Assembly (NCBI GenBank): GCA_034414775.1
Contig: DAOULX010000008.1
Location: 659-64,658, forward strand
DNA: 64,000 bases
Origin: Dehalococcoidales bacterium
Lineage (GTDB): Bacteria; Chloroflexota; Dehalococcoidia; Dehalococcoidales; RBG-16-60-22
Reading direction: 5' to 3'
Under the pieces are notes generated by a model, which searched no databases, was not told the origin of the DNA, and worked only from the letters and a program-made list of their open reading frames with translations. This document shows positions 16,662-35,659 of this stretch, piece after piece. Each line of letters starts with the position of its first letter. The stretch's first letter is position 1. The position numbers and the translations under genes were made by a program.

Positions 16662-17180
16662 ATGATAAGAGAAGAATATGAGAAAAAGTTAAAGAGGTTA
16701 GAGGCTGTTTTGGAAGATCATGAAAAACAGCTGAAAAAATTTAAGGATATACAGGAACTCCAAGAGTTGCATTTAAATTATGCCTACTTGCTGTGCACTC
16801 GTGAATGGGAGAAAATTGTGGATTTGTTCACAGATGATGCAGTGGCTATCCTGCATCGACGAGGAAGGTTTGAAGGAAAGAAAGAAATAATAAAAATATT
16901 TAAAGAAATTGTCCAGAATAATGGCGGCAGGGGAAGAGATGGCCATCTCGCATTACAGCCTATTATTAACGTTGATGGAGACGAAGCAACAGCTCAATGG
17001 CTGATGTACATTATGATTTTGGATCCAAAAGGGAAATATGAGAATACTTGGATGCATGGTAGGCATGATATGGAATACGTCCGTATTGACGGGCAGTGGA
17101 AAATTCGATATATGCTTTTTACATCTCCCTGGCCCAGGGAAGCCTGGTCATACCCCAAATTAGAGCCGCTGAAAAAGTAA
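16662..17180 (+). CDS. NTF2-like / SnoaL-like domain protein (paralog of 277-816)
   Basis: AAGGAG precedes the ATG. The coiled N-terminus (EEYEKKLKRLEAVLEDHEKQLKKFKDIQELQEL) is followed by YAYLLCTREWEKIVDLFTDDAV..RIDGQWKI. Confidence 0.7.
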   Translation: MIREEYEKKLKRLEAVLEDHEKQLKKFKDIQELQELHLNYAYLLCTREWEKIVDLFTDDAVAILHRRGRFEGKKEIIKIFKEIVQNNGGRGRDGHLALQPIINVDGDEATAQWLMYIMILDPKGKYENTWMHGRHDMEYVRIDGQWKIRYMLFTSPWPREAWSYPKLEPLKK

Positions 17181-17199: not shown

Positions 17200-18735
17200 T
17201 TAAGAGAGATATTTAACCGCGTTTTCTCCGGCAATTCGGCCCGAATTAAGCGCAAAGCCAAGCAGGTGCCCGGTGAGTTCGTAGCAGTAGCTATCCGATT
17301 CCCAGCCACCAGTCGTCGAGCCGGCAGCAAAAAGGCCAGGGATAGGATCGTCATTGGAGTTAATCACCTCCATATTTTCATTTATCTTGATACCACCGAT
17401 GGCGTCACAAATCTGTGAATGACCTTTGATAGCATAGAAAGGAGGCGATTTGATTGGTAATAGATATATCTTGTCCTTGCAGAAAACGGGATCATAAGCT
17501 TTATCGCAGGCAGAGTTGTATTCCGCGATGGACCTCTTCAGTGTTTCAGGTCTTGCCCCGATCCAGTTAGCAATCTCTTCCAGGGTGTTGGCTATCTTTA
17601 ACCACTCAGAGTGATTTTCGGCAATTTCACGCAACCCCTTTCCTATTCCGGGTAAGGGTCTCCCGCTCGTCACCGAACGTGCCATCGCCTGTTGAACTCC
17701 GTAGGCAGCCGGGCGGAGCAGTCCTTCCTCCTCAATGGACCCCAATATGCTCTCGTCAAACAGGCAATACATGGTACCCTCTGGCTGCTGAGCCGATGCA
17801 TTAGCACAGGCAAAGGAAGAGAGGTTATGACCTTCATCGATATATCTTCGGCCTCTCTTATTCACCCACAGCGTTTGAGGCTCCCAGACAAGGTTTGACA
17901 GAAATACACTTATCTCATTATCCTTGCCGGGATTGATGGTAATACGTCCATCTGGCGAGTTGGAGGAAGGCGAGTGCGGGCCGTGAAACATGATATGCCC
18001 CAGGCCAGCCATTTCCGCTCCGACTTCCATGGCCAGCTGTATGCCATCTCCGGTGTTGTGGCGTACCCCGTGATTCAGCATGACTTCCGGGTTGTAATAG
18101 GAACAATGCTTCGCGAGTAATTCTTTGTTCCCGCTATAACCGCCGGTAGTGATAATAATGCTTTTAGCGGTAATCTGATAATCTTTATCCGGGCCGGTAG
18201 CCAAAACCCCGGTTACCTGGCCGTTCTTCTCGCATAAAATTTTTTCCCCGGGGGTTCTGGTGAGCACCTGTATTCCTCGTTCTTTGCATTCATTGGCCAA
18301 CACTCTCATTAAAAAAGCGCCCCGGCCTTCGATGGCATGCCTGACGCGCGGGCATTGATTGATATAATATTGACTAAGATGGAAAGTGATTCCCTTTTCC
18401 ATAAGCCATCTAATAGTGTCGCCTGATTTATCGATAAAAGCCCGCACAATGCGTGGATTCACCTTTGACCAGTGGCACCAGCGCATGGCTATTTTAAAAA
18501 AATCGTCCCTACGGGCATCGGTGCCCATCCGCTTCTGAACGATGCTTTCGACTCCGAATAAATCGTGTGCCATTGCGGAAGTGCCACCGGTGGAGCCTAC
18601 CTTCTCCAGCACAATTATTCTCTTGCCGCCTTTTTCCGCTGCCGCTAAAGCTGCCGCCAGTCCTGCGCCGCCGCCGCCGATGATGACTATTTCAGCTTCC
18701 AGTTTCTCACATTCTCTTTCTCCTGAAGAATTCAT
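17200..18735 (-). CDS. FAD-dependent oxidoreductase, FAD_binding_2 family (fumarate reductase / KstD-like flavoprotein)
   Basis: It has the dinucleotide motif VIIGGGGAGLAAALAAAEKG and the C-terminal GLFAAGSTTGG. 511 aa, convergent with the SnoaL-like gene. Confidence 0.85.
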   Translation of the reverse strand: MNSSGERECEKLEAEIVIIGGGGAGLAAALAAAEKGGKRIIVLEKVGSTGGTSAMAHDLFGVESIVQKRMGTDARRDDFFKIAMRWCHWSKVNPRIVRAFIDKSGDTIRWLMEKGITFHLSQYYINQCPRVRHAIEGRGAFLMRVLANECKERGIQVLTRTPGEKILCEKNGQVTGVLATGPDKDYQITAKSIIITTGGYSGNKELLAKHCSYYNPEVMLNHGVRHNTGDGIQLAMEVGAEMAGLGHIMFHGPHSPSSNSPDGRITINPGKDNEISVFLSNLVWEPQTLWVNKRGRRYIDEGHNLSSFACANASAQQPEGTMYCLFDESILGSIEEEGLLRPAAYGVQQAMARSVTSGRPLPGIGKGLREIAENHSEWLKIANTLEEIANWIGARPETLKRSIAEYNSACDKAYDPVFCKDKIYLLPIKSPPFYAIKGHSQICDAIGGIKINENMEVINSNDDPIPGLFAAGSTTGGWESDSYCYELTGHLLGFALNSGRIAGENAVKYLS

Positions 18736-19272: not shown

Positions 19273-20256
19273 ATGAAAAGGATAAAAGTAGTATTCAGAG
19301 GCAGCTTTGAGCCTGAGGTTTGGGATATGTTCATCAAAGAGGCTCCACAAAATATAGAGGCTTTAATGATAAACCCAAAAGATACAACCGAAGAGGCTAT
19401 CGCCAAGCTAATGGTGGACACTGATTTTCTGATATGCTATAGAGGATGTGGCCGCATCCCAAAGGAGACTATTCAGGGAGCAAAAACTCTCAAGCTAATC
19501 CACCAACTTGGACAGGGTACCAACCATATACCGGTAAAAGCTGCGGCGGAAATGGGGATCCCTGTCACCAATATTGGCGGTGCCAGTGCGACGTCTGTTG
19601 CGGAGTATGCCGTGCTACTGATGCTGGCGGTCTTAAGATATCTGCCAATGCGCATCGCAGCTATTCATGGCGAAAAGCAAGATGTCAACCTCACCAGCAG
19701 ATATTCATATCAGCTATACCAGAAAACGGTTGGACTCGTGGGTTTTGGCAATATCGGGCGTTGGACTGCCAGGCTGCTACGCGGCTTTGATGCAAAGGTA
19801 ATCTTCCACGATAATTATGAGATTCCAAAATCAATTGCTGACGAACTCCAGGCTGCCCAGGTGAGTCTGGATGAACTGCTTTCAAGTGCTGATGTTGTTA
19901 GCCTGCACGTGCCACTGCGCGAGAGCACTCAAGGAATGATAGGTTGGGAGCAGCTGAACAAGATGAAGCCTTCAGCTGTTCTGATAAATACTGCCCGGGG
20001 AGCGGTAGTAGATGAAGAATCGCTTATCGGCGCTCTACAACAGAATATTATCGCCGGTGCAGGGTTGGACGTACTCACAAATGAACCGCCAAGCCCCGAT
20101 AATCCGCTATTGCATATGCAAAACGTAATCGTTACCCCGCATTCCGCAGCATCAAGAATCTGGGAAGATATCTCACCCTTAGTCAAACTCAGCTGGGAGA
20201 ATGTTTCGCTGGTGTTGGACGGTAAAAAACCACATAACATTGTGACTCCAGAGTAG
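19273..20256 (+). CDS. D-isomer-specific 2-hydroxyacid dehydrogenase (NAD-binding)
   Basis: It contains GLVGFGNIGRWTARLL (GxGxxG), RESTQGMI, NTARGAVVDE and TPHSAA. AAGGAGAG precedes the ATG. Confidence 0.85.
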   Translation: MKRIKVVFRGSFEPEVWDMFIKEAPQNIEALMINPKDTTEEAIAKLMVDTDFLICYRGCGRIPKETIQGAKTLKLIHQLGQGTNHIPVKAAAEMGIPVTNIGGASATSVAEYAVLLMLAVLRYLPMRIAAIHGEKQDVNLTSRYSYQLYQKTVGLVGFGNIGRWTARLLRGFDAKVIFHDNYEIPKSIADELQAAQVSLDELLSSADVVSLHVPLRESTQGMIGWEQLNKMKPSAVLINTARGAVVDEESLIGALQQNIIAGAGLDVLTNEPPSPDNPLLHMQNVIVTPHSAASRIWEDISPLVKLSWENVSLVLDGKKPHNIVTPE

Positions 20257-20339: not shown

Positions 20340-22022
20340 GTGGCTTTGAAGCGGGGCAGTGAAGCGCTGATGGAAATTATGCAAAACGAAGGAGTTGAGT
20401 ATGTCTTCGGTATCCCAGGTGTAACCGAAATAATGTTCATGAGTGCTCTCGAAAAGCACCCTGAGATAAAGTATATCCTAGGTCTTCAAGAAGTTATTTG
20501 TGCCGGTATGGCGGAAGGCTACGCCAGGATGTCTGGTAAACCGGGATTCCTTAATCTACATACCGCCCCCGGTTTGTCAGCCGCGATGCCCATATTAATT
20601 AATGCCCATATGGGCAACGTACCATTGATAGTAACTGCAGGGCAACAAGATACCCGTCTGCTGCTAAAAGACCCTCACCTGACCGGTGACCTGGTCGGAA
20701 TGGCAAAATCATTCTCCAAATGGCAGACCGAAGTCTTAAGAACTGAGGACATACCTCTTGCCATGGAGCGTGCCTTTAAAATGGCAATGCAACCTCCAAG
20801 CGGACCAGTCTTCTTATCCTTGCCGCATGATGTTATGTGCAATGAGATGGATTTTGAATATACTCCGCGTAAACCGCTCTTGAACGAGCTACGACCAGAC
20901 CGAAATGCTATCACCCAGGCGGTGAATTTACTTGCCAATGCAAAACCTAACAAAACCATAGCAATGTTCGTCGAGAGCGGTATAGCTAGGAACGATGCTT
21001 TATCAGAGGCAGTCCATTTCGCCGAATTGACAGGGGCGCGTGTATACCAGCCGTGGATGTCTGATATTAACTTCCCTATCCAGCACCCACAGTACATCGG
21101 TGGCATACAACTCTCCAGCCCCGAAACCAGAGACATGTTCCAATCAGTTGATGTACTGGTGATAATAGGATGCCCGTCATTATATAATTTACCTTACTTT
21201 GAATTTAGATCAATTTTACCCAAAGATATTAAAATATTACAGCTAGATGATAATCCCTGGGAAATTGCCAAAAACTTCCCAATAACGGTTGGTATCCAGG
21301 GTCATATAAAGGCATCCCTCAGGGAACTGATTGATAATCTGGAAGAGAAGATGACAACTGAGGCCAAACAAGCGGTAAAAAGCAGGATAAATGATATATC
21401 TGTACAGAAACAAGCCGTTTCAGAAGCTTTTCGTAAGCAAGACGAGGCAGAAAAGGATAACATCCCCATTTCCGTTTCATGGTTAATGAGAGAATTAAAC
21501 CGTGTTATTACACGTGATACCGTAATCGTGGATGATTGCTGGTCATCATCACGAACCCTACAGCGTGTACTGGATATTACCGATGTTAAAGGTTTTATCC
21601 GTTCTCGCCGGGGAGGGAGTATAGGATGGGGATTGCCAGGTGCTATCGGCGCCAAATTGGGTGCACCTAATCGGCCTGTAGTAGCTGTGTGCGGAGACGG
21701 CAGTGCCATGTGGTCAATCCAAGCTTTATGGACAGCAGCACACTGCAAAATACCAGTTACTTTTCTCATAATATCCAATGCAAATTACCGACAAGCCAAG
21801 CTTATGTGGAAAGTGTTCTTAGGTGGAGATTTAACTGAGAAGCGTATTGGCATGGATCTGGACGATCCCGTAATCAACTTCTGCAAGTTAGCTGAAGCAA
21901 TGGGTGTCTATGGAGAGAAGGTGCAACACCCAGATAACTTGGGACAGGTGTTGACAGATGCCATCGATTCCAATGCACCACGTCTGATTGAAGCGATTGT
22001 AGAAAACAAAAACACTCCTTGA
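20340..22022 (+). CDS. thiamine-diphosphate-dependent enzyme (acetolactate synthase / benzoylformate decarboxylase-like)
   Basis: GTG start 7 nt after AAGGAGG. It has an N-terminal Pyr domain (GVEYVFGIPG) and the C-terminal ThDP motif GDGSAMWSIQALWTAAHCKIPVTFLIISNANY. Confidence 0.85.
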   Translation: MALKRGSEALMEIMQNEGVEYVFGIPGVTEIMFMSALEKHPEIKYILGLQEVICAGMAEGYARMSGKPGFLNLHTAPGLSAAMPILINAHMGNVPLIVTAGQQDTRLLLKDPHLTGDLVGMAKSFSKWQTEVLRTEDIPLAMERAFKMAMQPPSGPVFLSLPHDVMCNEMDFEYTPRKPLLNELRPDRNAITQAVNLLANAKPNKTIAMFVESGIARNDALSEAVHFAELTGARVYQPWMSDINFPIQHPQYIGGIQLSSPETRDMFQSVDVLVIIGCPSLYNLPYFEFRSILPKDIKILQLDDNPWEIAKNFPITVGIQGHIKASLRELIDNLEEKMTTEAKQAVKSRINDISVQKQAVSEAFRKQDEAEKDNIPISVSWLMRELNRVITRDTVIVDDCWSSSRTLQRVLDITDVKGFIRSRRGGSIGWGLPGAIGAKLGAPNRPVVAVCGDGSAMWSIQALWTAAHCKIPVTFLIISNANYRQAKLMWKVFLGGDLTEKRIGMDLDDPVINFCKLAEAMGVYGEKVQHPDNLGQVLTDAIDSNAPRLIEAIVENKNTP

Positions 22023-22330: not shown

Positions 22331-24937
22331 ATGGGTAAGACCGAAAACAGCCGAGAAAATACCGTTATCAGGTCTTTAGCCCTCGGAGGTGGTTTAGGTG
22401 GCGGCGGGCCATGTGCGGTGGACGTTAAAGACGGTAAAATAATCAGGATCAAACCCTTGCACTATGACTGGAAATATAAAAAAGAAGAACTAAATCCTTG
22501 GAAAATTACCAGGAATGGCCAAACCTTTGAACCTCTTATGAAAACGGTAGTGGCTCCTTTCTCACTGGCATACAAAAAGCGAGTCTATTCTCCCAATAGA
22601 ATTAAATATCCCTTAAAGAGGAAAGACTGGGACCCTAATGGGAAAAGAAATCCTCAGAACCGGGGCAAGACCAAGTATCAGAGAATCTCCTGGGACGAGG
22701 CTGCTCAAGTAATAGCGGATGAAATAAAAAGAGTTAAGGCAACATATGGTCCACTGGCAATCTTGTTGCAGGGGGATGGGCACGGGGAATGCAAGACCAT
22801 CCATGCATCTCACGGATGCCCTGCGATTCTCTTAGATAAAATGGGAGGCTTTACCCAGCAGATAAGAAACCCGGACAGTTGGGAAGGCTGGTATTGGGGC
22901 TCCAAGCATGTGTGGGGACAGGGCTGGGTGGGCATGATGAGGCCCTCGACTAATCTGGTCAAGGACATCACCGAGAACTGCGAATTGGTCCTCTGTTGGG
23001 GCTGTGATCCGGAAACCACCTCTTGGGGATTTACCGGCCAGTTTGCCAGCCGGCTAAGCTACTTCTGGAAGGATGTTGGCATAAATCAAGTCTATATTTG
23101 CCCTGACCTTAATTATGGAGCGGCGGTTCATGCGGATAAGTGGATCCCTATTCTTCCAAATACCGACGCCGCCTTACAGTTAGCTATTATATATCAATGG
23201 ATAAAGAAAGATACTTACGATAAGCAGTATGTGGACACTCATACCGTGGGATTTGACAAGGTTAAAGCTTATGTAATGGGGGAAGAAGATGGTATAGCCA
23301 AGTCCCCAGAGTGGGCCTCCAAGAAATGTGGCGTTCCTGAATGGACTATCAAAGCTCTGGCAAAGGAGTTTGCCTCAAGGATCACCTCCATTGTCCATTA
23401 TTTTGGCGGCTCCATGGTTAGAGGGGCTTACTCACACGAGCCAGCTAGGCTGGAAGCTATCTTACTGGGCATGCAGGGGCTGGGGAAACCCGGTGTCCAT
23501 CAGTTCCAGATAGGTTATGTAGGAATGCCCAGAAGTAAAGCCGCCATAGACTCATCATTTTTTAATGTTAATGTGAGTGAAAGTATTAAAAGGCCACAAG
23601 CAGTCACCCTAGAATTGAGTGAAAAGCAAGGTATTCCCAAAACCCTTATACATAAAGCTATTCTTAATCCCCCACTTAATTTTTGGGGCAGTGGTGCCAT
23701 AAATGCTACCTATGAGGACCAATTTAAGAAGTACACCTATCCCATCCCTAAAGATCAGGGTGGTACGGAGATCCATATGATCTGGACGGACTCTCCTTGC
23801 CGGACCACCTGCTGGAACTGCGGCAACGAGATCGTCGAATCTTATCGTAGTCCCAAGATAGAATGTATGATAGCCCAGCATCCCTGGTTGGAAAATGACT
23901 GCCTATATGCTGATATAATCCTGCCGGTCAGTACCACCTTGGAGGTGGAAGATATTGTAATTAATCTCAGGCAGGGAGTACAGTTCCAGAGCATCGTGCT
24001 GCAGAAACAAGCTATCCAACCAATAGGAGAATCGCGGAGCGATTTGGAAGCAGTTTATGAGATAGCCAAAAAACTGGGCAATTATGATGAGATCAACGAT
24101 AGTAAGAGCTCTGAAGAATTAGAGAAATCGGTCTTCGATTATATGGGAGCGCAGAAGTTCATTAACTGGGAAGAGTTCAAAGAAAAGGGCTACCTCCCCT
24201 TCCCGATTGCTGAAGATTGGGAAAAAGATCCAGCGGGTTTAATAAAATTCTATGAGGATCCGGTAATGAACCCTCTGACTACTCCCTCGGGTAAGCTGGA
24301 GTTCTATTCCGAAAGACTAGCTAAATATTTCCCCCATGATCAAGAGAGACCGCCGATTCCTAAGTGGATAGAAAAGAGTGAAATGCATGATGAAAGACTC
24401 TCCAGCAAACGGGCGCAAGTATATCCCCTGCTTCTGATGTCCAACCACGGAAGATGGAGAGTACATGCCCAATGCGACGACATACCGTGGACAAGAGAAA
24501 TTCCGACTTGCAAGGTAAAGGGATGGGATGGTTATCTATACGAGCCTGTTTGGATACATCCTAAAGATGCAGAAAAAAGAGGCATAAAAGATGGAGATAT
24601 TGTTAAAGTATTAAATGAGCGTGGTATTGTTCTTGGGGGAGCGCGTGTCTGGGAAAGAATAATGCCCGGTGTAACCTATGTCGACCATGGCGCGAGAGTA
24701 GACTACATCATTCCAGGAAAACTTGATCGGGGAGGGGCAATCAACACCATCGCTCCAGATGGAATTACTTCTAAATATTGTGGTGGGCAGGCCACCAGCG
24801 GTTACCTGGTGGAAGTCGAAAAGTTGACTCTCTCGCAACTTGAAGGTTGGAAGAATCAATACCCGGATGCTTTTGTCAGGGGATACGATTCATCATGCGG
24901 ATTACTTTTTGAATCCTGGGTAACTGAAGAAAGTTGA
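22331..24937 (+). CDS. molybdopterin (bis-MGD) enzyme without Fe-S cluster motif, pyrogallol-phloroglucinol transhydroxylase large-subunit-like
   Basis: 868 aa with no N-terminal Cys cluster and no twin-arginine motif. It has DMSO-reductase-family architecture. The strings VKDGKIIRIKP, YPLKRKDWDPNGKRNPQNRG and NPDSWEGWYWGSKHVWGQGW match my recollection of AthL. This needs checking. Confidence 0.75.
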   Translation: MGKTENSRENTVIRSLALGGGLGGGGPCAVDVKDGKIIRIKPLHYDWKYKKEELNPWKITRNGQTFEPLMKTVVAPFSLAYKKRVYSPNRIKYPLKRKDWDPNGKRNPQNRGKTKYQRISWDEAAQVIADEIKRVKATYGPLAILLQGDGHGECKTIHASHGCPAILLDKMGGFTQQIRNPDSWEGWYWGSKHVWGQGWVGMMRPSTNLVKDITENCELVLCWGCDPETTSWGFTGQFASRLSYFWKDVGINQVYICPDLNYGAAVHADKWIPILPNTDAALQLAIIYQWIKKDTYDKQYVDTHTVGFDKVKAYVMGEEDGIAKSPEWASKKCGVPEWTIKALAKEFASRITSIVHYFGGSMVRGAYSHEPARLEAILLGMQGLGKPGVHQFQIGYVGMPRSKAAIDSSFFNVNVSESIKRPQAVTLELSEKQGIPKTLIHKAILNPPLNFWGSGAINATYEDQFKKYTYPIPKDQGGTEIHMIWTDSPCRTTCWNCGNEIVESYRSPKIECMIAQHPWLENDCLYADIILPVSTTLEVEDIVINLRQGVQFQSIVLQKQAIQPIGESRSDLEAVYEIAKKLGNYDEINDSKSSEELEKSVFDYMGAQKFINWEEFKEKGYLPFPIAEDWEKDPAGLIKFYEDPVMNPLTTPSGKLEFYSERLAKYFPHDQERPPIPKWIEKSEMHDERLSSKRAQVYPLLLMSNHGRWRVHAQCDDIPWTREIPTCKVKGWDGYLYEPVWIHPKDAEKRGIKDGDIVKVLNERGIVLGGARVWERIMPGVTYVDHGARVDYIIPGKLDRGGAINTIAPDGITSKYCGGQATSGYLVEVEKLTLSQLEGWKNQYPDAFVRGYDSSCGLLFESWVTEES

Positions 24938-24996
24938 AAAGGTGCATATAAGGCCTCAGCCTTTGATGAAATAATGAATACGGGGGATTATAAAGA

Positions 24997-27411
24997 TTGA
25001 GCAGTATTAATTCAGCAGTAGACGGGGAGAGGATAATAAGAACTGCTTGTCATCTCTGTCACGGTGGTTGTATCTTACTGGCCCATGTTAAAGAGGGGAG
25101 ACTTATTAAATTAACAGGTGACCCCGAGGGGCCATTAAACAGAGGCGGTATGTGCGAAAAAGCATTTTCTGCCGTTGACTATGTATATAGCCCCTATCGC
25201 CTCAAACATCCTATGAAAAGGGTTGGAGAAAGGGGTGAAGGGAAATGGCAAAGAATCTCTTGGGATGAAGCTCTTGACACCATAGCTGGAAAATTGCAGG
25301 TCATAAAAGACAAATATGGAGGAGAGAGTATTGCATATGCTACTGGCACCGGTAGAGTAGCCGTCGAAACGCCGCAAGAGTTTTTTAGTGCTGTATTGGG
25401 TACACCGAATTGTATAGGTATTGGTCACATGTGCCTTAGTACCACCAGAAGACCCGTTGTTTATTCAACTCTAGGAACAGTACCCGGAAATATGGATAAA
25501 GGTATTTGCCGTGATTTTGAACGAGCTCAGTGTATCGTAGTTTGGGGAGATTCAATTATCGACTCGCGTGGTGATTATATGGGGCTCGCAGGGAAAAGGA
25601 TTTCTTCAGCACTCAATCGAGGAGCAAAGCTGATAGTCATAGACCCGGTATTAACAAAGGTGGCAGCGAAGTCCCATCTATGGCTGCAAGTCAGGCCTGG
25701 AACTGATATCGCTCTTGCATTGTCATGGATACATATAATTATAAATGAAAACCTATATGATATGGATTTTGTAATAAACTGGACCAATGCACCTTTTCTC
25801 GTCAGGTCTGATACGGGAAAGCTGCTAAGGGAAAAGGACATTTTACCCGATGCGTCACCTGATAATTTTGTTGTTTGGAATGCTGATGATAATACCTACC
25901 ATATATGGAACTCCGATATGCTCTCCTACGACTCGCACATTGCACAACCTGCTTTGACCGGAAGTTACTCAGTCAGCTTGGCAAACGATAGAATAATTGA
26001 ATGTAAGCCAGTCTGGCAAGTCATCAAAGATAATGTTAGAGAATGGACGCCGGAAAGGGCAGCCGAGATAACATGGATTCCCCCTGAAAAAATTGTAGAA
26101 TCTGCCATGATGTATGCCAAGATTAAGCCCGCATGTCTTGAATGGGGGCTTGGGACCTCTCAATGCACACGGTCAACAGCTACAAATCAGGCAATTTTAC
26201 ATCTTAAAGCAATTACTGGAAACCTTGATATTCCTGGAGGTAACCCTTTCTGGATTAATCCAGGAGTACTGGGAAGACCTGTCTTCTCCGCTTATCCCCC
26301 TGGGCAAGAAAAAAAGCGTATAAATGGCGGTTTCCCTTTTAATTGTTATGAAATATTGCCTGTCTTTGCTACCCATGCACCTACAGCGTGGAGGGCTGTT
26401 TTAACAGAGGAACCCTATCCAATCAAAGCGCTAGTCGGCCATAGCAGCAATCCATTATTAGGACATGAAAATCCAGGCAATTATATCCTCGAAGCATTGA
26501 AAAAGTTAGAGTTCATTGTATGGATAGATATTACGATGACGCCATCAAATGAGTGGGCAGACATTGTCTTACCCGCATCAACACCTTTGGAAAGGGACTG
26601 GATATCTGAATTTGACAGGGGCGTCTTTGCCGGCAAGGCCGTAATTCAACCACAGTGGGAAAGCAGATCTGACCTTGAAATTTATAGGGATTTATGTCAA
26701 AAGATGGGGCGTGAGGATGCATGGCCATGGAAGACTGATCGAGAGTGGTGTGACTATAGGTTAAAAGGTGCAGGAATAACTTTTGATGAGTTGACTGAAA
26801 CTTGTTTCAAACCTGCACTGGATGTTTGGAAAAAATATGAAAAGGGCTTGATACGTAAGGATGGTAGACCAGGATTTCAGACAAATTCAGGGAAAGTTGA
26901 ACTATATTCATCTCTTTTTGAGAAAGCAGGCATTCAACCTCTACCGCATTTTAGTTATCCGCCTGAAAGTTACGAAACCACGCCCGATTTAGCAAAAGAA
27001 TACCCATTAATATTAATTACTGGAGCTCGGGAATTAAATTATCCATTCTTTCAGACACAATACCAGATTTTACCCCGTTTGCGTAAAATGCAGCCTTATC
27101 CTTTGGTGCTTATTCACCCGGATACGGCACGTTCCTTGGAAATAAAAGACAATGATTGGGTATGGATAGAGACAAAAAAAGGCAAAGCCAAATTCAGAAC
27201 TCAAGTTACAGAAAGAATACATCCAAAGGTAGTTTCCGCCTCACATGACTGGTGGAATCCAGAATTTCCCGGTCCTGATCACGGGGCATTTGAGTCAAAT
27301 GTGAACCTCCTTGTTGACCCCGTCAGCTTTACTGACCCAGCTTCAGGTACAACAGAACTTAGAGGACTATTATGCAGGGTATATAAGTTCGAAGCAATCG
27401 CTGAAACTTAA
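24997..27411 (+). CDS. molybdopterin/tungstopterin (bis-MGD) enzyme with N-terminal [4Fe-4S] motif, acetylene-hydratase-like clade
   Basis: TTG start after GGGGGA. It has the Cys motif CHLCHGGC...C(EKA) and a candidate metal-ligand Cys in GIGHMCLST. The C-terminal GKVELYSSLFEKAGIQPLPHFSYPPES..LAKEYPLILITGARE resembles acetylene hydratase as I recall it. Confidence 0.75.
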   Translation: MSSINSAVDGERIIRTACHLCHGGCILLAHVKEGRLIKLTGDPEGPLNRGGMCEKAFSAVDYVYSPYRLKHPMKRVGERGEGKWQRISWDEALDTIAGKLQVIKDKYGGESIAYATGTGRVAVETPQEFFSAVLGTPNCIGIGHMCLSTTRRPVVYSTLGTVPGNMDKGICRDFERAQCIVVWGDSIIDSRGDYMGLAGKRISSALNRGAKLIVIDPVLTKVAAKSHLWLQVRPGTDIALALSWIHIIINENLYDMDFVINWTNAPFLVRSDTGKLLREKDILPDASPDNFVVWNADDNTYHIWNSDMLSYDSHIAQPALTGSYSVSLANDRIIECKPVWQVIKDNVREWTPERAAEITWIPPEKIVESAMMYAKIKPACLEWGLGTSQCTRSTATNQAILHLKAITGNLDIPGGNPFWINPGVLGRPVFSAYPPGQEKKRINGGFPFNCYEILPVFATHAPTAWRAVLTEEPYPIKALVGHSSNPLLGHENPGNYILEALKKLEFIVWIDITMTPSNEWADIVLPASTPLERDWISEFDRGVFAGKAVIQPQWESRSDLEIYRDLCQKMGREDAWPWKTDREWCDYRLKGAGITFDELTETCFKPALDVWKKYEKGLIRKDGRPGFQTNSGKVELYSSLFEKAGIQPLPHFSYPPESYETTPDLAKEYPLILITGARELNYPFFQTQYQILPRLRKMQPYPLVLIHPDTARSLEIKDNDWVWIETKKGKAKFRTQVTERIHPKVVSASHDWWNPEFPGPDHGAFESNVNLLVDPVSFTDPASGTTELRGLLCRVYKFEAIAET

Positions 27412-27810: not shown

Positions 27811-29271
27811 ATGCCTGGCAGAGACTTAAGGAGCTGGATAGTCCAATTGGAAGCTGAGGGTGAGTTTAAGAAAGTAACCGCACCAGTAGATTGGAACGAA
27901 GAAATATCCCAAATTATCCGGAAAGTATATGCCCAAAATGGTCCAGCTCTTCTATTTGATAATATCAGGGATTACCATAATACTCGGGGCCGAAGACTAT
28001 TTGTCAACGGTTTGGGAACAACAGGTCGTGTAAATATGATGCTCAATCTACCGAAGGATACTCCTATTCCAAAGCTGATAAAGACGATCAGAGATAGAAT
28101 GAAGTCACCAATAAAACCTGTGACGGTTAGCACCGGACCGGTCAAAGAAAATATTGTCAAAGGTGACGATATTGACCTTTTTCAATTCCCGGTGCCCAAA
28201 TGGCATGCGCATGATGCTGCGCGTTATATTAATACTTTCTATTCGGCAGTGACCAAGGATCCGGATACCGGCCAGTTAAATTGTGGTATCTATCGAGGTG
28301 GGATACTCAGTAAGAACAAGATAAGCAACCTATTGATACCCATGAAAGATTGGGGCGCTACTTATTCTAAGTACCAGCTTATAAAAAAACCAATGCCAGT
28401 AGCATTCGTCTATGGCTGGGATCCGGCTCTACTAGCAATTTCGGGAGTTCCATGTATCGGGCCCGAGTATGACCTGGCAGGAGCATTAAGGCAAGCTCCA
28501 GTGGAATTGGTTAAATGCGAATCCTCAGATATAGAGGTCCCTGCTTCAGCAGAAATAGTGGTTGAAGGCACTATTTCTCCGGATCCCCAAAGCTACGAAG
28601 TCGAAGGGCCATTCGGTGAGGCTTCCGGGTACTATGGTGTGGCTAGAACAAGACCGGTGGTAGAAGTTAGTTGCATCACGCACAGAAATGATCCCATTTT
28701 CCGAGGGGGTTATGTCGGTACTGAGAGTACTGTTACAGATGAACTCAAGACCATGGTGGGTAACACCATGTCAGCCGGTGTTTGGAGTATATTGGATACG
28801 CAAGAAATTCCGGGTATACTTGACGTCCAAACAGGGCACATAACAGCAATCAAGATTCACAAAACCTACCAAGGCCAGCCCAGGCAGATAAGCGCGGCTT
28901 TATGGGGATCCAAGTTTGCGGGTCAAGCTAACAGCAAGATAATCATGGTGGTTGAAGAAGATGTGGATATTCATAATCCCATGGATCTTCAGAAAGCCCT
29001 ACATGATAAACTAGATATTAAAGGAGGTCTAGTCTCATATCCCTTATACATCGGATCACCAGCGGACCCAAGTATTCCCTATGAGATGAGAAATGAGCTA
29101 AAATATGGGGCTGCCATGCAAGAAAAGCTGCTAATTGACGCTACGACCGATTGGGAAATTCACCCCATTCGCTCTGAGTGGGGTGGTAGCAGATTCCCCC
29201 CCAAGGCTATTGAAGCTTCAAGAGAAATAGAGGAATTGGTAGATAGAAGGTGGAAAGAATATAATATATAG
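27811..29271 (+). CDS. UbiD-family (prFMN-dependent) decarboxylase
   Basis: GAGGAGG precedes the ATG. The N-terminal RDLRSWIVQLEAEGEFKKVTAPVDWNEEISQI..GPALLFDNI is typical of UbiD. 486 aa. Confidence 0.85.
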   Translation: MPGRDLRSWIVQLEAEGEFKKVTAPVDWNEEISQIIRKVYAQNGPALLFDNIRDYHNTRGRRLFVNGLGTTGRVNMMLNLPKDTPIPKLIKTIRDRMKSPIKPVTVSTGPVKENIVKGDDIDLFQFPVPKWHAHDAARYINTFYSAVTKDPDTGQLNCGIYRGGILSKNKISNLLIPMKDWGATYSKYQLIKKPMPVAFVYGWDPALLAISGVPCIGPEYDLAGALRQAPVELVKCESSDIEVPASAEIVVEGTISPDPQSYEVEGPFGEASGYYGVARTRPVVEVSCITHRNDPIFRGGYVGTESTVTDELKTMVGNTMSAGVWSILDTQEIPGILDVQTGHITAIKIHKTYQGQPRQISAALWGSKFAGQANSKIIMVVEEDVDIHNPMDLQKALHDKLDIKGGLVSYPLYIGSPADPSIPYEMRNELKYGAAMQEKLLIDATTDWEIHPIRSEWGGSRFPPKAIEASREIEELVDRRWKEYNI

Positions 29272-29679: not shown

Positions 29680-30873
29680 ATGAGCGCATTAAATCAACTG
29701 ATAAAGATGTACATTCCGAATTCGGTCGTTGGATTAGGGGCTATTAACTCCATCAGTGAAACTATCAAAGGTTTTGCTCCGACAAAAATTCTTGTTCTTT
29801 CCGATGAAGGTTTGAGGAAAGCCGGGATTGTAGATAAGGTTATACCCTACCTTAAAAGTGCCGGCTATCCATTTGATATTTATGATAAATGTGAAACGGA
29901 GCCAACTATTAGCCACATTGAGACATTAGCACATAGTATTAAAACTAAACACTACGATCTCCTTATCGGTTTGGGAGGAGGCAGTGTCATGGATACTACC
30001 AAGGTCGCGAGTTTAATTGCTGCCAACAAGGGTGTAAACACTTATGACTTGATTAACGGCCAAAAGGTAGAAAATACCATTCGAAAGATACTTATTCCTA
30101 CTACTGCCGGTACTGGCTCGGAATGGAGCTATGCCGCCGTGGTTTCGGACGATAAAGCAGATAAAATGACAAAACTGATCTCAACCCAGCAAAACTTTGC
30201 TGATGCAGTGATCATAGACCCGGAACTAACCTTCGATTTACCTCCCAGGATTACAGCGGATACCGGGATCGATGCTCTTACACACTGTATGGAGGGCTAT
30301 TTCGGAGCTAGATCGAATGTACTTTCTGATATGATTAATGGAACAGCCTTGCAGCTTATTGCCGATAACTTACGTTCTGCCTACCTTCAGGGAACCCAAA
30401 ATCACGAAGCCCGATTTAATATGTCGGTTGCTGCCGCTCTTGCAATTCAGGGTGGAGGTCTTTCTGGTTCACCACTCGCACATATTTTAAATGAACCTCT
30501 TGGAAAAAGAGTGCACATATCCCACGGTACTGCCTGTGGCTTATTACTGGTGCCAGTCATGAAGTTTAATCTCCCAAGTAATCCGAAGAGGTTCGCCCAG
30601 ATTGCCCGAATAATGGGAGAAGATATCCATTTGCTCTCTGATCTTGAAGCAGCTGCCAGGTCAACGGAGGCAGTATACAAACTGATTAAAGACATTAAAA
30701 TGCCGACAAAACTTGCTGAGGCGACGGATATCGAGCTTACTGAGACAGATATCTCGATAATGGCGGAACAAGTCTCTAAAGCCTTTCCCATACTAAATTT
30801 AACAAATACCCGGCCAGTCACTCTCTCAGATGTAACACAAATCTATAGGCATGCTATTTGGGGAGAAAACTAG
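29680..30873 (+). CDS. iron-containing (group III) alcohol dehydrogenase
   Basis: It has the GLGGGSVMDTTK motif and the metal-site histidines IDALTHCMEGY and RVHISHGTACG. 397 aa. Confidence 0.85.
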   Translation: MSALNQLIKMYIPNSVVGLGAINSISETIKGFAPTKILVLSDEGLRKAGIVDKVIPYLKSAGYPFDIYDKCETEPTISHIETLAHSIKTKHYDLLIGLGGGSVMDTTKVASLIAANKGVNTYDLINGQKVENTIRKILIPTTAGTGSEWSYAAVVSDDKADKMTKLISTQQNFADAVIIDPELTFDLPPRITADTGIDALTHCMEGYFGARSNVLSDMINGTALQLIADNLRSAYLQGTQNHEARFNMSVAAALAIQGGGLSGSPLAHILNEPLGKRVHISHGTACGLLLVPVMKFNLPSNPKRFAQIARIMGEDIHLLSDLEAAARSTEAVYKLIKDIKMPTKLAEATDIELTETDISIMAEQVSKAFPILNLTNTRPVTLSDVTQIYRHAIWGEN

Positions 30874-31513: not shown

Positions 31514-33445
31514 ATGAACGATTTCGGCTATGCCGGTGAGATACTCCGGGTAGACCTGACGACTGGATCCGTCAGCAAGCTAATCACGTCCGATTACGCC
31601 GAACGGTTCCTGGGTGGCCGGGGCATCGCCGCTAAAATTCACTGGGATGAAACTCCCCTCCCCGTCCAGGCCTACAATCCCGGCAACTGCCTGGTCTTCG
31701 CCACCGGGCCGTTAACGGGATTCACCCGGTTGTCAGGCTGCCGTTGGGAGGTCTGCGCCACGGCGCCGGGTGGCGACCGGGACCGCTTTTCTTACGCCAA
31801 TTTCGGGGGGAGCTGGGGGGCCTGGCTCAAATTCAGCGGCTACGACGCGCTGGCCGTTACCGGTCGTGCTGAGCGCCCCGTCTATCTCCTCATCGAAAAC
31901 GGAGACGTTGAAATCAGGGACGCCGCCTTCCTCCGTAGCAAGACCACCTCCGAGACCCAGGAAATGCTGAAGGCAGAACTGGGGAAAGGGGCCAAGGTGC
32001 TCTGCATCGGACCGGCCGCCGAGAACCTGTTGCCCTTCGCCACCATCCTCGCCGAAGATAACGCCTCCGGTACAGGCGGCCTCGGCGGCGTCATGGGATC
32101 GAAGAATCTCAAAGCAATCGTTATCCGGACCGGTGAACTGAAAAGACCGGTGGCTGCCGAACCGGAGCTTCTCAAGACGCTTACAGAACAGGTCTACCGG
32201 CTACAGACGGAGAACTGGGAAGACCACGGCCACGAATTGGTCGCCATGGCCGGAAGGACGCATCGCACCGCCTGCTACGGATGCATCAAGGGCTGCACCC
32301 GCGGGATGTACCGGACTGAGGACGGGCGTCAGTTCAAGTTTTACTGCCAAGCCACTGCCGTCTACCGCGGTCCGGCGGCGAAATACAACGGGAATGCCGG
32401 GGATATCGATAAACTGGCAACGCGACTCTGTGATGAATACGGGCTGGATACCGCCGTACTCCAGCCGATGATCGAATGGCTGGATCGCTGCTATGAAGCG
32501 GGCCTGCTCAATGAACAACTGACCGGTCTGCCAATGGAGCGGATCGGCAGTCCGGAGTTTATCAGGGAGCTGACAAGGAAGCTTGCCTTCCGCGAGGGCT
32601 ACGGTGATGTCCTGGCCGCGGGTACATTCGAGGCCGCCGCTCGTGTCGGCCGGGACGCTGTTGAGCTCATCGGGACGACTATCGCCACACGGGCCGGGGA
32701 GTGCCGCGACCATGATCCCAGACTGTTACCACCCAATATCCTCATCTATGCCACGGAACCACGCCGGTCGGTCTATCTGCTCCACTCGACGGCCTTTCCG
32801 TTGACAAGGTGGCTGAACTGGCAGGCTGGCGCCGATAATGCGTTCCTTACCACCGATATCCTCCGGACCATCGCTGAGAGGGAATGGGGCAGCCGGGACG
32901 CTTTCGATTTTACCACCCGCGGCGGGATGGCTTTGGCCACGAAAAAGATCCAGGACTACGGGTATATAAAATCGAGCCTGGTGCTCTGCGACATGGCCTG
33001 GCCGATCTATCAGGTCCACTCGCTGGATAGCAGCATCGGGGCGTATACCCTGGAAAGCCGCCTTGTCTCGGCTATCACCGGGCGGCCGATGACCGAAGCG
33101 GAATTGGAAAAAACCGGCGAAAGGGTATTTAACCTGCAACGGGCGATACTAAACCGGCAGGGGTGGGGAGGTAGGTCGGGGGATAGCCTCGTCGAGCCGC
33201 TTTTCACCGAGCCCCTTGACGGGACGTTCTATGACCCCGAGAGCATTGTCCCCGGCGGTGATGACGACCCGGCTCCAAGAAAGGGCGCCGTCATCGGAAG
33301 AGAGGATTTTGAGAAGCTGAAGGACGAGTACTATACGTTGCGTGGTTGGGACGTGGCTACCGGACTTCAGAAAGATTCCAAACTGATTGAGCTGGGGCTC
33401 GGAGACATCGCCCGGGTGTTGGAGGAAAGCGGCCTCTTAAAGTAG
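31514..33445 (+). CDS. aldehyde:ferredoxin oxidoreductase family (tungstopterin) enzyme
   Basis: It has the N-terminal AFOR motif GEILRVDLTTGSV..FLGGRGIAAKI and the cluster motif TACYGCIKGC. 643 aa. Confidence 0.85.
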   Translation: MNDFGYAGEILRVDLTTGSVSKLITSDYAERFLGGRGIAAKIHWDETPLPVQAYNPGNCLVFATGPLTGFTRLSGCRWEVCATAPGGDRDRFSYANFGGSWGAWLKFSGYDALAVTGRAERPVYLLIENGDVEIRDAAFLRSKTTSETQEMLKAELGKGAKVLCIGPAAENLLPFATILAEDNASGTGGLGGVMGSKNLKAIVIRTGELKRPVAAEPELLKTLTEQVYRLQTENWEDHGHELVAMAGRTHRTACYGCIKGCTRGMYRTEDGRQFKFYCQATAVYRGPAAKYNGNAGDIDKLATRLCDEYGLDTAVLQPMIEWLDRCYEAGLLNEQLTGLPMERIGSPEFIRELTRKLAFREGYGDVLAAGTFEAAARVGRDAVELIGTTIATRAGECRDHDPRLLPPNILIYATEPRRSVYLLHSTAFPLTRWLNWQAGADNAFLTTDILRTIAEREWGSRDAFDFTTRGGMALATKKIQDYGYIKSSLVLCDMAWPIYQVHSLDSSIGAYTLESRLVSAITGRPMTEAELEKTGERVFNLQRAILNRQGWGGRSGDSLVEPLFTEPLDGTFYDPESIVPGGDDDPAPRKGAVIGREDFEKLKDEYYTLRGWDVATGLQKDSKLIELGLGDIARVLEESGLLK

Positions 33446-35178: not shown

Positions 35179-35625
35179 ATGAAAAATGTTCTTTTGGTTT
35201 ACTTCAGCCTGAGCGGCAATACCCAGACCATGGCGCAGTATGTAGCCGAAGGCGTCCGTTTTAGCGGGCAGGATGTAACGGTCAAAAAGGCGGCGGAAAT
35301 CAAGGAAGCCTCGGAGCTGGCCGGCTACGACGGCTACATCTTTGCTTCACCCACCTACTACCTGGATATCGGCGCCCCGATGAAGACCTTTCTTTTCCTG
35401 GCGCGGCAGGCCGACCTCGCCGGTAAGCTGGCCGGGGCGTTTGGCTCCTACACCCATGACGGCAACGCCCCGCGGATGATATTCGATACCATGCAGAATG
35501 TTTTTAAGATGGAGCCTTTCGAACTGGGGGCCTTCAACCTAGTTGAGGCTAAGGTAGCCACCAACGAAGGTATGCGCGCCTGCCAGGCCTACGGCCGGAC
35601 CTTCGGCGAGGCGCTGGAAAGGTAA
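35179..35625 (+). CDS. flavodoxin (short-chain)
   Basis: 148 aa with the FMN phosphate loop LLVYFSLSGNTQTMA. GAGGAGG precedes the ATG. Confidence 0.85.
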   Translation: MKNVLLVYFSLSGNTQTMAQYVAEGVRFSGQDVTVKKAAEIKEASELAGYDGYIFASPTYYLDIGAPMKTFLFLARQADLAGKLAGAFGSYTHDGNAPRMIFDTMQNVFKMEPFELGAFNLVEAKVATNEGMRACQAYGRTFGEALER

Positions 35626-35659
35626 ACATCTTTCCCCGTCCGGTTAAGGCAGGCACGCC

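What the first reader, a model, noticed from the sequence alone, without database searches (positions are those of the whole stretch)
24997..27411. Acetylene-hydratase-like W/Mo enzyme in which the residue after the second cluster cysteine is His, not Asp
The N-terminus reads C-H-L-C-H-G-G-C...C. As I recall the acetylene hydratase structure, the motif is C-Q-S-C-D-I-N-C, and the Asp after the second Cys (Asp13) activates the W-bound water. Here that position is His. A Cys in GIGHMCLST aligns with the metal-ligand Cys region (MYMCIGN in AH). The C-terminal third (GKVELYSSLFEKAGIQPLPHFSYPPES..LAKEYPLILITGARE) is strikingly AH-like. That combination suggests the same scaffold used for different chemistry or a different substrate.
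Basis: partly seen in the sequence, partly recalled or inferred. Interest (0 to 1): 0.55.

Follow-up and report, generated by a model that had tools for sequence, protein, structure and literature searches.

The report
Acetylene-hydratase relative, probably a polyphenol dehydroxylase
This gene encodes a cytoplasmic molybdenum/tungsten enzyme whose closest solved structure is acetylene hydratase, but it belongs to a large His-bearing sister group that includes the gut catechol dehydroxylases, and it sits beside a pyrogallol-transhydroxylase-like gene in what looks like a polyphenol-degradation cluster.

Summary
ORF 24997-27411 (+) encodes an 804-aa bis-MGD enzyme. Its motif C18-H-L-C21-H22-G-G-C25...C53 aligns without a gap to acetylene hydratase (AH) C9-Q-S-C12-D13-I-N-C16...C46, and Cys146 aligns to the tungsten ligand Cys141. 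AH is the best solved-structure match by sequence (312 bits) and by fold (TM 0.79/0.87).

The His is not a one-off substitution. All 43 full-length members of the query's clade read HGGC, and most of a much larger related group carry His. All 117 readable sequences among AH's nearest 120 relatives carry Asp. Characterised Gordonibacter catechol dehydroxylases (Dodh GPGCHNGC, Cldh GPGCHEGC) also have His and score higher against the query (356-411 bits) than AH does.

In a bootstrapped tree the Asp clade, the Gordonibacter clade and the query clade each get 100% support. Their branching order is unresolved.

All 13 clade members at about 53-63% identity with readable downstream sequence are followed by a small poly-ferredoxin gene, which points to redox chemistry rather than hydration. 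The query's closest relatives sit next to pyrogallol-transhydroxylase-like genes (7 of 13 contexts against 3 of 79 in the wider family).

Best reading: a reductive dehydroxylase, or a related oxygen-atom-transfer enzyme, acting on a polyhydroxy-aromatic. The subclade is uncharacterised. Interest is moderate.

The parts
24997..27411 (+). Gene for the 804-aa AH-related bis-MGD enzyme ('Cdh-like'). TTG start, no twin-arginine signal, so it is predicted cytoplasmic.
24982..24986 (+). Shine-Dalgarno-like GGGGG, 10 nt upstream of the TTG start.
   Evidence: read directly from the sequence
25048..25155 (+). N-terminal [4Fe-4S] (FS0) motif C18-x2-C21-x3-C25-x27-C53. All four Cys are conserved in the clade.
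25060..25062 (+). His22 codon (CAC), the position of AH Asp13. His in 40/40 aligned clade members, followed by invariant Gly23-Gly24.
25159..25161 (+). Lys55, equivalent to AH Lys48, which lies between the cluster and the pterin. K or R across the family.
25432..25434 (+). Cys146, predicted Mo/W ligand, equivalent to AH Cys141. Invariant in every homolog examined.
25579..25581 (+). Met195 at the position of AH Trp179. Trp in 60/60 of the AH clade, Met in 39/40 of the query clade.
25792..26013 (+). 74-residue insertion (aa 266-339) relative to AH. It is also absent from Gordonibacter-type dehydroxylases, and present in E. lenta-type dehydroxylases and perchlorate reductase PcrA.
27010..27363 (+). 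C-terminal molybdopterin-dinucleotide-binding domain (aa 672-789).
22331..24937 (+). Pyrogallol-hydroxytransferase large-subunit-like gene (868 aa), 59 nt upstream with no terminator-like site in the gap. It keeps the NPDSWEGW segment holding Asp174/Ser175 (the Mo ligand) of the P. acidigallici enzyme.
27811..29271 (+). UbiD-family (prenyl-FMN) decarboxylase, 400 nt downstream.
29680..30873 (+). Iron-containing alcohol dehydrogenase.
20340..22022 (+). ThDP enzyme most similar to benzoylformate decarboxylase.
19273..20256 (+). D-2-hydroxyacid dehydrogenase, a possible mandelate-type dehydrogenase.
31514..33445 (+). Aldehyde:ferredoxin oxidoreductase (tungsten-enzyme family).

Best explanation
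The gene encodes a cytoplasmic, Cys-ligated Mo (or W) bis-MGD enzyme with an N-terminal [4Fe-4S] cluster. It belongs to the His-bearing sister group of acetylene hydratase, the group that contains the catechol dehydroxylases.

Proposed mechanism, following the one suggested for catechol dehydroxylases (PMC7028382):
1. A hydroxyl of a polyhydroxylated aromatic binds reduced Mo(IV). [inferred]
2. His22 occupies the second-shell position where AH has Asp13. It acts as the general acid/base that assists tautomerisation and protonation. [His22 position shown by alignment only; role inferred]
3. The C-O bond is cleaved by oxygen-atom transfer, giving Mo(VI)=O. [inferred]
4. Two electrons arrive through the [4Fe-4S] cluster and Lys55 and regenerate Mo(IV) plus water. 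[inferred]

In most clade members the electrons would come from a small poly-ferredoxin beta subunit. In this window no such gene is present, so the donor would be a soluble ferredoxin or flavodoxin, or the Fe-S subunit of another complex. [inferred]

The enzyme is co-transcribed with a pyrogallol-transhydroxylase-like Mo enzyme. It lies in a cluster with a UbiD decarboxylase, a benzoylformate-decarboxylase-like ThDP enzyme, 2-hydroxyacid and alcohol dehydrogenases and an AOR. This suggests that it adjusts the hydroxylation pattern of an aromatic intermediate during anaerobic polyphenol or aromatic-acid catabolism. [inferred]

Shown: the homology, the residue mapping, the clade-level conservation and the gene neighbourhoods. 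Inferred: the substrate class, the direction of the reaction, the role of His22 and the electron donor.
For: - Closest solved structure is AH, by sequence (311.8 bits) and by fold (TM 0.79/0.87, rmsd 3.3 A). The residue mapping therefore has a firm template.
- Characterised Gordonibacter dehydroxylases score higher against the query than AH does: unnamed Gordonibacter-type protein 411 bits, Cldh 387, Dodh 356, AH 312. They share the C-H-x-G-C motif.
- Motif survey: query clade HGGC 43/43; about-40%-identity group His 59/71; AH's top 120 hits Asp 117/117.
- Profile alignment: D13->H22, I14->G23 (40/40 Gly) and W179->M195 (39/40 Met), which would open the small AH pocket. C141, K48 and W293 are retained.
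- Tree: the query clade lies outside the Asp clade, and both have 100% bootstrap support.
- 13 of 13 clade members at about 53-63% identity with readable downstream DNA have a Fer4_11 poly-ferredoxin gene right after the catalytic gene. This matches the alpha-beta arrangement described for Gordonibacter dehydroxylases (PMC7028382; PMC11574389).
- TH-like genes are enriched near the tight clade: 7/13 contexts against 3/79 in the wider family, Fisher p = 2e-5.
- PMC7028382 reports that a homolog lies in the Thauera 3,5-dihydroxybenzoate degradation operon and that strains lacking it grow poorly on that substrate.
- Environmental homologs annotated as catechol dehydroxylases are expressed together with pyrogallol transhydroxylase in polyphenol-amended peat (PMC12203004).
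Against: - No member of the query's own clade has been characterised.
- The deep branching among the AH, Gordonibacter-type, E. lenta-type and query clades is unresolved (bootstraps 1-30%).
- The window has no Fe-S beta-subunit gene anywhere in 64 kb. The query is therefore organised like monomeric AH.
- Unlike the Gordonibacter enzymes, it keeps all four cluster cysteines. Unlike the E. lenta enzymes, it has no TAT signal.
- The role of His22 rests only on homology to Asp13. The AF2 model has no cofactors and is of low confidence around Cys146.
- Substrate, reaction direction and metal (Mo or W) are not determined.
Confidence: 0.55

Rival explanations
1. Coupled two-molybdoenzyme transhydroxylation. 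The TH-like enzyme hydroxylates a polyphenol with water, releasing 2 e-. The AH-related enzyme reductively removes a different hydroxyl, consuming 2 e-. The two Mo centres are wired through Fe-S clusters (the query's own cluster, plus a BthL-like or Fer4_11 subunit where present). The net result is a hydroxyl shift, for example pyrogallol -> tetrahydroxybenzene -> phloroglucinol, without a catalytic cosubstrate.
For: - The gene pair is adjacent and co-oriented in the window (59-nt gap), in L003 and in L008.
- The order TH-like / BthL-like / small ORF / Cdh-like is seen in L004. TH-like plus BthL-like genes are adjacent in L118, and a BthL-like gene is upstream in L116.
- The enrichment is significant: 7/13 against 3/79.
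- Both enzymes act on ring hydroxyls in their characterised relatives.
Against: - About half of the clade's contexts lack any TH-like gene within 5-10 kb.
- The window has no Fe-S subunit to connect the two enzymes.
- The TH alpha subunit has no cluster of its own.
- Adjacency is equally well explained by two consecutive steps of one pathway.
- No interaction has been tested.
Confidence: 0.15
2. A non-redox, AH-like hydratase or lyase for a different substrate. His replaces Asp as the general acid/base, and the [4Fe-4S] cluster serves only to keep the metal reduced, as it does in AH.
For: - AH is the nearest solved structure.
- The protein is cytoplasmic, has the complete cluster motif and the Cys ligand, and has no electron-transfer partner gene in the window, which is the AH organisation.
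- W293, K48, R606 and F611 equivalents are kept.
Against: - Asp13 is absent from every clade member. It is specific to the AH subfamily, and activity is lost in D13A.
- Trp179, invariant in the AH clade, is Met here.
- Close clade relatives have a poly-ferredoxin partner, which a redox-neutral enzyme would not need.
- The clade is excluded from the AH clade with 100% bootstrap support.
Confidence: 0.12
3. An anaerobic, water-dependent hydroxylase or dehydrogenase running in the oxidative direction. It would pass electrons from an aromatic or alicyclic substrate through the cluster to ferredoxin, flavodoxin or ETF.
For: - The same scaffold supports oxidative hydroxylation elsewhere in the superfamily.
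- A FixABCX-type ETF system and a flavodoxin lie 8-12 kb downstream.
- FAD_binding_2 flavoprotein plus small ferredoxin genes accompany the closest relatives in L003 and L007.
Against: - The nearest characterised relatives are reductases.
- The known hydroxylating members (ethylbenzene dehydrogenase, TH and resorcinol hydroxylase types) belong to other branches and use Asp or Ser ligands, not Cys. This last point is from established knowledge of the family and was not tested here.
Confidence: 0.1
4. An ordinary respiratory reductase for an inorganic substrate (polysulfide, thiosulfate, tetrathionate or arsenate type).
For: - PsrA is the second-best PDB hit (236 bits) and scores slightly better than AH over the N-terminal domain.
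- NCBIfam shows sub-threshold similarity to PhsA.
Against: - There is no TAT signal, no NrfD-type membrane anchor and no periplasmic Fe-S subunit.
- Every NCBIfam hit is far below its cutoff.
- AH and the catechol dehydroxylases score much higher than PsrA over the full length.
- The gene context is aromatic catabolism.
Confidence: 0.03

Closest known systems
Acetylene hydratase (Syntrophotalea/Pelobacter acetylenica AHY, PDB 2e7z)
   Same: - Fold: TM 0.79/0.87.
- Same domain order.
- Complete C-x2-C-x3-C...C [4Fe-4S] motif.
- Cys metal ligand (C141/C146).
- Lys48/Lys55 and Trp293/Trp383.
- Strongly similar C-terminal domain.
- Cytoplasmic, no TAT signal; in this window, no partner subunit gene.
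   Different: - Asp13 -> His22, Ile14 -> Gly23 and Trp179 -> Met195. All three are fixed in the query clade.
- 74-residue insertion (aa 266-339).
- About 30-34% identity.
- Falls outside the 100%-supported Asp clade.
- Close clade relatives have an electron-transfer subunit.
Gordonibacter-type catechol dehydroxylases (Dodh, Cldh; Eadh1/2 of urolithin producers)
   Same: - His immediately after the second cluster Cys (C-H-x-G-C).
- Cys ligand.
- No TAT signal, predicted soluble.
- Small 4Fe-4S partner gene directly downstream in most of the query's clade.
- Transporter genes nearby.
- Higher scores to the query than AH (356-411 bits against 312).
   Different: - The Gordonibacter enzymes lack the first cluster Cys (T/S-G-P-G-C-H...) and are reported to lack the Fe-S motif. 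The query keeps all four Cys.
- They lack the 266-339 insertion.
- 30-37% identity.
- They form a separate clade with 100% support.
- This window has no beta gene.
- Pairing with a transhydroxylase-like gene is not described for them.
Eggerthella lenta-type catechol dehydroxylases (Dadh, Cadh, Hcdh)
   Same: - bis-MGD enzymes with an N-terminal Cys cluster motif.
- They share the WTNAPFLV... insertion that AH and the Gordonibacter type lack.
- They act on ring hydroxyls.
   Different: - TAT-exported, membrane-anchored three-subunit complexes.
- Motif C-x2-C-G-K-M-E-C, with Gly rather than His and a 4-residue spacing.
- About 950-1020 aa.
- More distant in sequence.
Pyrogallol-phloroglucinol transhydroxylase (P. 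acidigallici AthL/BthL, PDB 4v4c)
   Same: Same superfamily and acts on polyphenol hydroxyls. The adjacent gene (22331-24937) is a full-length homolog of its large subunit (423 bits).
   Different: The query itself is only remotely related (40 bits). TH has a Ser ligand and no cluster in the alpha subunit. The window lacks the BthL beta subunit.

Membership tests
Acetylene hydratase subfamily | Asp directly after the second [4Fe-4S] cysteine (Asp13), H-bonded to the W-bound water. D13A is inactive. | tested here: not met
   His22 aligns to Asp13. His in 43/43 of the query clade against Asp in 117/117 of AH's nearest relatives. The feature is defined in PMC12096430.
Acetylene hydratase subfamily | Cys ligand to the metal (Cys141) | tested here: met
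   Cys146 aligns to it and is invariant.
Acetylene hydratase subfamily | N-terminal [4Fe-4S] motif Cys9/12/16/46 | tested here: met
   C18/C21/C25/C53 with the same spacing.
Acetylene hydratase subfamily | Residues of AH's hydrophobic ring that are invariant across the AH clade (Trp179, Trp293) | tested here: not met
   Trp179 -> Met195 (Trp 60/60 in the AH clade, Met 39/40 here). Trp293 is kept as Trp383.
Acetylene hydratase subfamily | Phylogenetic placement inside the AH clade | tested here: not met
   The Asp clade has 100% bootstrap support and excludes the query clade. The tree is NJ on 660 columns, not ML.
Acetylene hydratase subfamily | Acetylene hydration activity | not testable with these tools
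   Requires an enzyme assay.
Catechol dehydroxylase class (bis-MGD; PMC7028382) | [quoted passage not shown] | tested here: met
   phmmer scores: Gordonibacter-type 356-411 bits, AH 312, PsrA 236, all others below 190.
Catechol dehydroxylase class (bis-MGD; PMC7028382) | Membership of a characterised dehydroxylase clade (Gordonibacter-type or E. lenta-type) | tested here: not met
   The query clade is separate from the 100%-supported Gordonibacter-type clade and from Dadh/Cadh. The backbone of the tree is unresolved.
Catechol dehydroxylase class (bis-MGD; PMC7028382) | Co-located Fe-S electron-transfer subunit (alpha-beta or alpha-beta-gamma architecture) | tested here: inconclusive
   Present directly downstream in 13/13 clade members at about 53-63% identity with readable flank. 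Absent from the whole window.
Catechol dehydroxylase class (bis-MGD; PMC7028382) | Reductive removal of a ring hydroxyl from a catechol | not testable with these tools
   Requires biochemistry. No member of the query clade has been assayed.
Polysulfide/thiosulfate reductase (PsrA/PhsA) | TAT export, NrfD-type membrane anchor, and a score reaching the family cutoff | tested here: not met
   No RR motif in the 17 residues before Cys18. PhsA model scores 278.6 bits against a cutoff of 694. No anchor gene is present.

The most novel reading that the evidence does not exclude
The AH-related His enzyme and the adjacent transhydroxylase-like enzyme form a conserved two-molybdoenzyme module in sediment Chloroflexota and their relatives. 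The module moves a hydroxyl around an aromatic ring by coupling water-dependent hydroxylation at one Mo centre to reductive dehydroxylation at the other, through Fe-S wiring. This would be a cosubstrate-independent alternative to the classical pyrogallol-phloroglucinol transhydroxylase. His22 would be the catalytic acid/base that separates dehydroxylases from hydratases on this scaffold.
Probability: 0.15. Interest if true: 0.7.

Novelty: new variant of a known kind. Interest (0 to 1): 0.45.

Why it matters
- **A sequence rule for annotation.** Asp against His at one position next to a cluster cysteine separates true acetylene hydratases from the much larger dehydroxylase-like group. Many database entries labelled 'acetylene hydratase-like' or 'anaerobic selenocysteine-containing dehydrogenase' could be re-sorted this way, and estimates of acetylenotrophy from metagenomes would become more reliable. 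None of the papers I read states this rule.
- **A testable mechanistic residue.** His22 is a candidate catalytic residue for the catechol dehydroxylases. Their mechanism is still only a proposal, and no structure of one is in the PDB copy searched here.
- **A possible new route in anoxic polyphenol turnover.** The repeated pairing of this clade with transhydroxylase-like genes in uncultured sediment bacteria and archaea points to an unstudied step in polyphenol and lignin-derived aromatic degradation. That process bears on carbon storage in peat and sediments.

Tried and rejected
- An exact look-up of the window protein's contig found nothing on record. Cluster look-ups gave no names or accessions, so the source organism stays unidentified. 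The nearest named relatives are Dehalococcoidia/Chloroflexota and Deltaproteobacteria MAGs.
- Searching the eLife alignments for contiguous CHGGC-type strings found nothing. That dataset either gaps the motif or does not sample this clade.
- The two Thauera AR-1 papers on the 3,5-dihydroxybenzoate cluster are not held. That precedent rests on the eLife summary only. One literature query failed on syntax.
- A large MAFFT alignment split the Asp and His motifs into separate gap columns. I rejected that as an artefact because both motifs have identical spacing. I re-read the motif directly and used hhalign.
- A shifted Asp was considered and rejected, because there is no Asp near the motif.
- Rfam found no Moco/Wco riboswitch or any other RNA apart from one tRNA. 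The promoter and terminator scans were at background level.
- The UbiD enzyme's best solved relative (7pda) is deposited only as 'UbiD family decarboxylase'. Protocatechuate decarboxylases score far lower, so it does not pin down the substrate.
- The AF2 model has no cofactors and is of low confidence at the Cys146 loop. It could not be used to measure the His22-to-metal geometry.
- NJ bootstraps for the deep nodes are 1-30%. I make no claim about which characterised clade is the sister of the query clade.
Full report
**1. The observation**

The ORF at 24997-27411 (+) is real. It starts at a TTG preceded by GGGGG. It encodes 804 residues with the three domains of a bis-MGD catalytic subunit: Molybdop_Fe4S4 at 13-65, Molybdopterin at 68-568 and Molydop_binding at 672-789. 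No NCBIfam equivalog comes near its cutoff; the best, Fdh-alpha, scores 284 bits against 666.

Acetylene hydratase (AH, 2e7z) is the best match among all PDB sequences, at 311.8 bits. Polysulfide reductase PsrA follows at 236 bits and everything else is below 190. HMMER aligns ACHLCHGGCILLAHVK with VCQSCDINCVVEAEVK. This pairs His22 with Asp13 (PDB index plus 3 gives the published numbering, verified) and Cys146 with the tungsten ligand Cys141.

A profile-profile alignment of the query clade against the AH clade gives probability 100% over 689 columns at 34% identity, with the same pairing. Both motifs are C-x2-C-x3-C, so a shifted Asp is impossible.

An AlphaFold2 model (pLDDT 83.7, pTM 0.89) has AH as its best structural neighbour (TM 0.79/0.87, rmsd 3.3 A), ahead of perchlorate reductase and PsrA.

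**2. His is a clade signature, not a single substitution**

The protein database holds thousands of relatives that are closer to the query than AH is. About 49 proteins at 55-74% identity form a tight clade. They are followed by a large group at about 40%.

Among cluster representatives at 50% identity, the 150th best still scores 352 bits, and 2144 have E <= 1e-30.

I read the residues between the aligned second and third cysteines in each group:
- Query clade: HGGC in 43 of 43 full-length sequences.
- About-40%-identity group: His in 59 of 71.
- Broader representatives: His is the most common residue (43 of 135), but others occur.
- AH's nearest 120 relatives: Asp in 117 of 117 readable sequences.

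Further fixed differences appear in the profile alignment:
- Ile14 -> Gly23: Gly in 40/40 of the query clade.
- Trp179 -> Met195: Trp in 60/60 of the AH clade, Met in 39/40 of the query clade.
- Retained: Cys141, Lys48, Trp293, Arg606 and Phe611 equivalents.
- A 74-residue insertion at 266-339 relative to AH.

A 2025 review states that Asp13 is specific to the AH subfamily, that D13E is tolerated and that D13A is inactive (PMC12096430). The protein therefore fails a defining test for AH membership.

**3. The nearest characterised enzymes**

Maini Rekdal et al. (eLife 2020, PMC7028382) showed that the molybdenum-dependent catechol dehydroxylases form a group whose closest characterised relative is AH. 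They also reported many uncharacterised environmental homologs.

Their deposited alignment shows Gordonibacter Dodh as GPGCHNGC and Cldh as GPGCHEGC. His follows the second Cys and the first Cys is missing. E. lenta Dadh and Cadh read CCRGCGKMEC.

I de-gapped these sequences and scored them against the query. An unnamed Gordonibacter-type protein gives 411 bits, Cldh 387, Dodh 356 and AH 312.

I built a neighbour-joining tree of 152 sequences on 660 columns with 100 bootstraps. It gives 100% support to three separate clades: the Asp (AH) clade, the Gordonibacter-type clade (all His) and the query clade. The order in which they join is unresolved, with bootstraps of 1-30%.

The query combines features of the characterised types:
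- Complete [4Fe-4S] motif, as in AH and the E. lenta type. The Gordonibacter type is reported to lack it (PMC11574389).
- His, as in the Gordonibacter type.
- The 266-339 insertion, as in the E. lenta type and PcrA.
- No TAT signal, as in AH and the Gordonibacter type.

None of the papers I read mentions the Asp/His contrast.

**4. Gene context**

The gene lies 59 nt downstream of an 868-aa homolog of the pyrogallol-phloroglucinol transhydroxylase large subunit. That homolog carries PF21423 and scores 423 bits to 4v4c over its full length. The NPDSWEGW segment with Asp174 and Ser175 is conserved.

The flanking genes are:
- Upstream: a D-2-hydroxyacid dehydrogenase and a benzoylformate-decarboxylase-like ThDP enzyme.
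- Downstream: a UbiD decarboxylase, an Fe-alcohol dehydrogenase and an aldehyde:ferredoxin oxidoreductase.

This looks like an anaerobic aromatic-acid or polyphenol catabolic cluster.

I fetched 126 related loci and scanned them with tblastn.

In the part of the clade at about 53-63% identity, all 13 contexts with readable downstream DNA have a Fer4_11 poly-ferredoxin gene directly after the catalytic gene. TRAP transporters are adjacent in the two such loci whose gene calls were read (L001, L002). This is the alpha-beta layout described for the Gordonibacter enzymes.

TH-like or BthL-like genes recur near the closest relatives:
- L003 (74% identity): TH-like gene directly upstream.
- L004 (72%): TH-like, BthL-like and a small ORF upstream, and a second TH-like gene downstream.
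- L008 (59%, a Dehalococcoidia MAG): TH-like, then Cdh-like, then Fer4_11.
- Also L002, L089 and L118, and a BthL-like gene upstream in L116.

Overall, 7 of 13 informative tight-clade contexts have a TH-like gene, against 3 of 79 in the wider family (Fisher p = 2e-5).

The window contains no Fe-S beta gene. Its only ferredoxin-type motifs belong to a GlcF/HdrD-like protein and a FixABCX-type ETF system with a flavodoxin gene just upstream, at 35-39 kb.

**5. Interpretation**

The most economical reading is a redox-active oxygen-atom-transfer enzyme of the catechol-dehydroxylase kind that acts on a polyhydroxy-aromatic. His22 would be the second-shell acid/base. Gly23 and Met195 would enlarge the pocket that in AH fits only acetylene. 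The cluster and Lys55 would deliver the electrons. I give this a confidence of 0.55.

The rivals are:
- A coupled hydroxylase/dehydroxylase module with the TH-like neighbour (0.15). This is the most novel reading.
- A redox-neutral hydratase with new specificity (0.12).
- An oxidative hydroxylase (0.10).
- An inorganic respiratory reductase (0.03).

Substrate, reaction direction, metal and the role of His22 are inferred, not shown.

**6. Novelty and score**

The class is known, and environmental members are already annotated as CDH (PMC12203004). Hug et al. 2013 noted AH-like and pyrogallol hydroxytransferase genes on Chloroflexi scaffolds.

Three things are new here:
- A clean Asp/His sequence rule that separates AH from the dehydroxylase-like group.
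- A distinct, uncharacterised clade with a hybrid set of features.
- A statistically supported pairing of that clade with transhydroxylase-like genes.

I rate this a new variant of a known kind, with interest 0.45.

Noticed in passing
window 1-31000 vs 32000-64000: G+C content rises from about 41-51% in the first half to about 56-66% in the second half. The change falls around 31-32 kb, just after the aromatic-catabolism cluster. This could be a horizontally acquired low-GC island or a chimeric MAG contig.
   Followed up: no
window 35179-39301 (+): Five genes in a row: a flavodoxin, an ETF-beta, an ETF-alpha with an N-terminal 2x[4Fe-4S] domain, a FixC-like flavoprotein and a 111-aa FixX-like ferredoxin. 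Together they form a FixABCX-type, possibly electron-bifurcating, system that could supply low-potential electrons to the Mo/W enzymes nearby.
   Followed up: partly
window 45030-50165 (-): A DnaE2-like DNA polymerase III alpha subunit (1178 aa) lies next to an ImuB-like IMS-family protein (404 aa). This resembles an imuB-dnaE2 damage-inducible mutagenesis cassette.
   Followed up: no
window 22331-24937 (+): The TH-like large subunit has no BthL-type Fe-S beta subunit gene anywhere in the window. In the HMMER alignment, P. acidigallici Arg153 and Tyr404 align to Ser and Met, although the Tyr404 region is gapped. It may therefore not use the classical substrate or cosubstrate.
   Followed up: partly
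P0269-P0388 (AH's nearest relatives): The Asp-bearing AH clade is large and includes proteins from aerobic or facultative Proteobacteria (Bradyrhizobium, Paraburkholderia, Cupriavidus). Asp13, Trp179, Trp293, Lys48 and Cys141 are invariant, but the other hydrophobic-ring positions (Ile14, Ile113, Ile142, Trp472) vary. Many of these proteins may not be acetylene hydratases.
   Followed up: partly
L003 948-2930 and L007 2068-4029: A 565-581-aa FAD_binding_2/Succ_DH_flav_C flavoprotein plus a 66-75-aa 2x[4Fe-4S] ferredoxin sits just upstream of the query's closest relatives. The window has a 511-aa FAD_binding_2 protein on the opposite strand (17200-18735). Flavoproteins annotated as fumarate reductase/succinate dehydrogenase are strongly induced by catechin in E. 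lenta (eLife supplementary file 2b).
   Followed up: no
L004 3832-4146, L003 476-787: A conserved 104-aa ORF with no Pfam match lies between the BthL-like gene and the next gene in two loci. It is absent from the window.
   Followed up: no
L118 8001-11809: A short fragment, 70% identical to the query's N-terminal region, is followed directly by TH-like and BthL-like genes. It could be a truncated or decayed copy of the Cdh-like gene, or an assembly break.
   Followed up: no
window 1782-5682 and 12386-16083: Two separate Opp/Dpp-type ABC transporter sets (SBP_bac_5 plus two permeases each), a carboxylesterase (10822-12309), two SnoaL-like proteins (277-816, 16662-17180) and a GlcD/GlcF-like FAD/CCG oxidoreductase set (6414-10687) lie upstream. 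They may handle esterified or conjugated aromatic substrates.
   Followed up: no
window 62582-62655 (+): A single tRNA gene is the only Rfam hit in the window.
   Followed up: no
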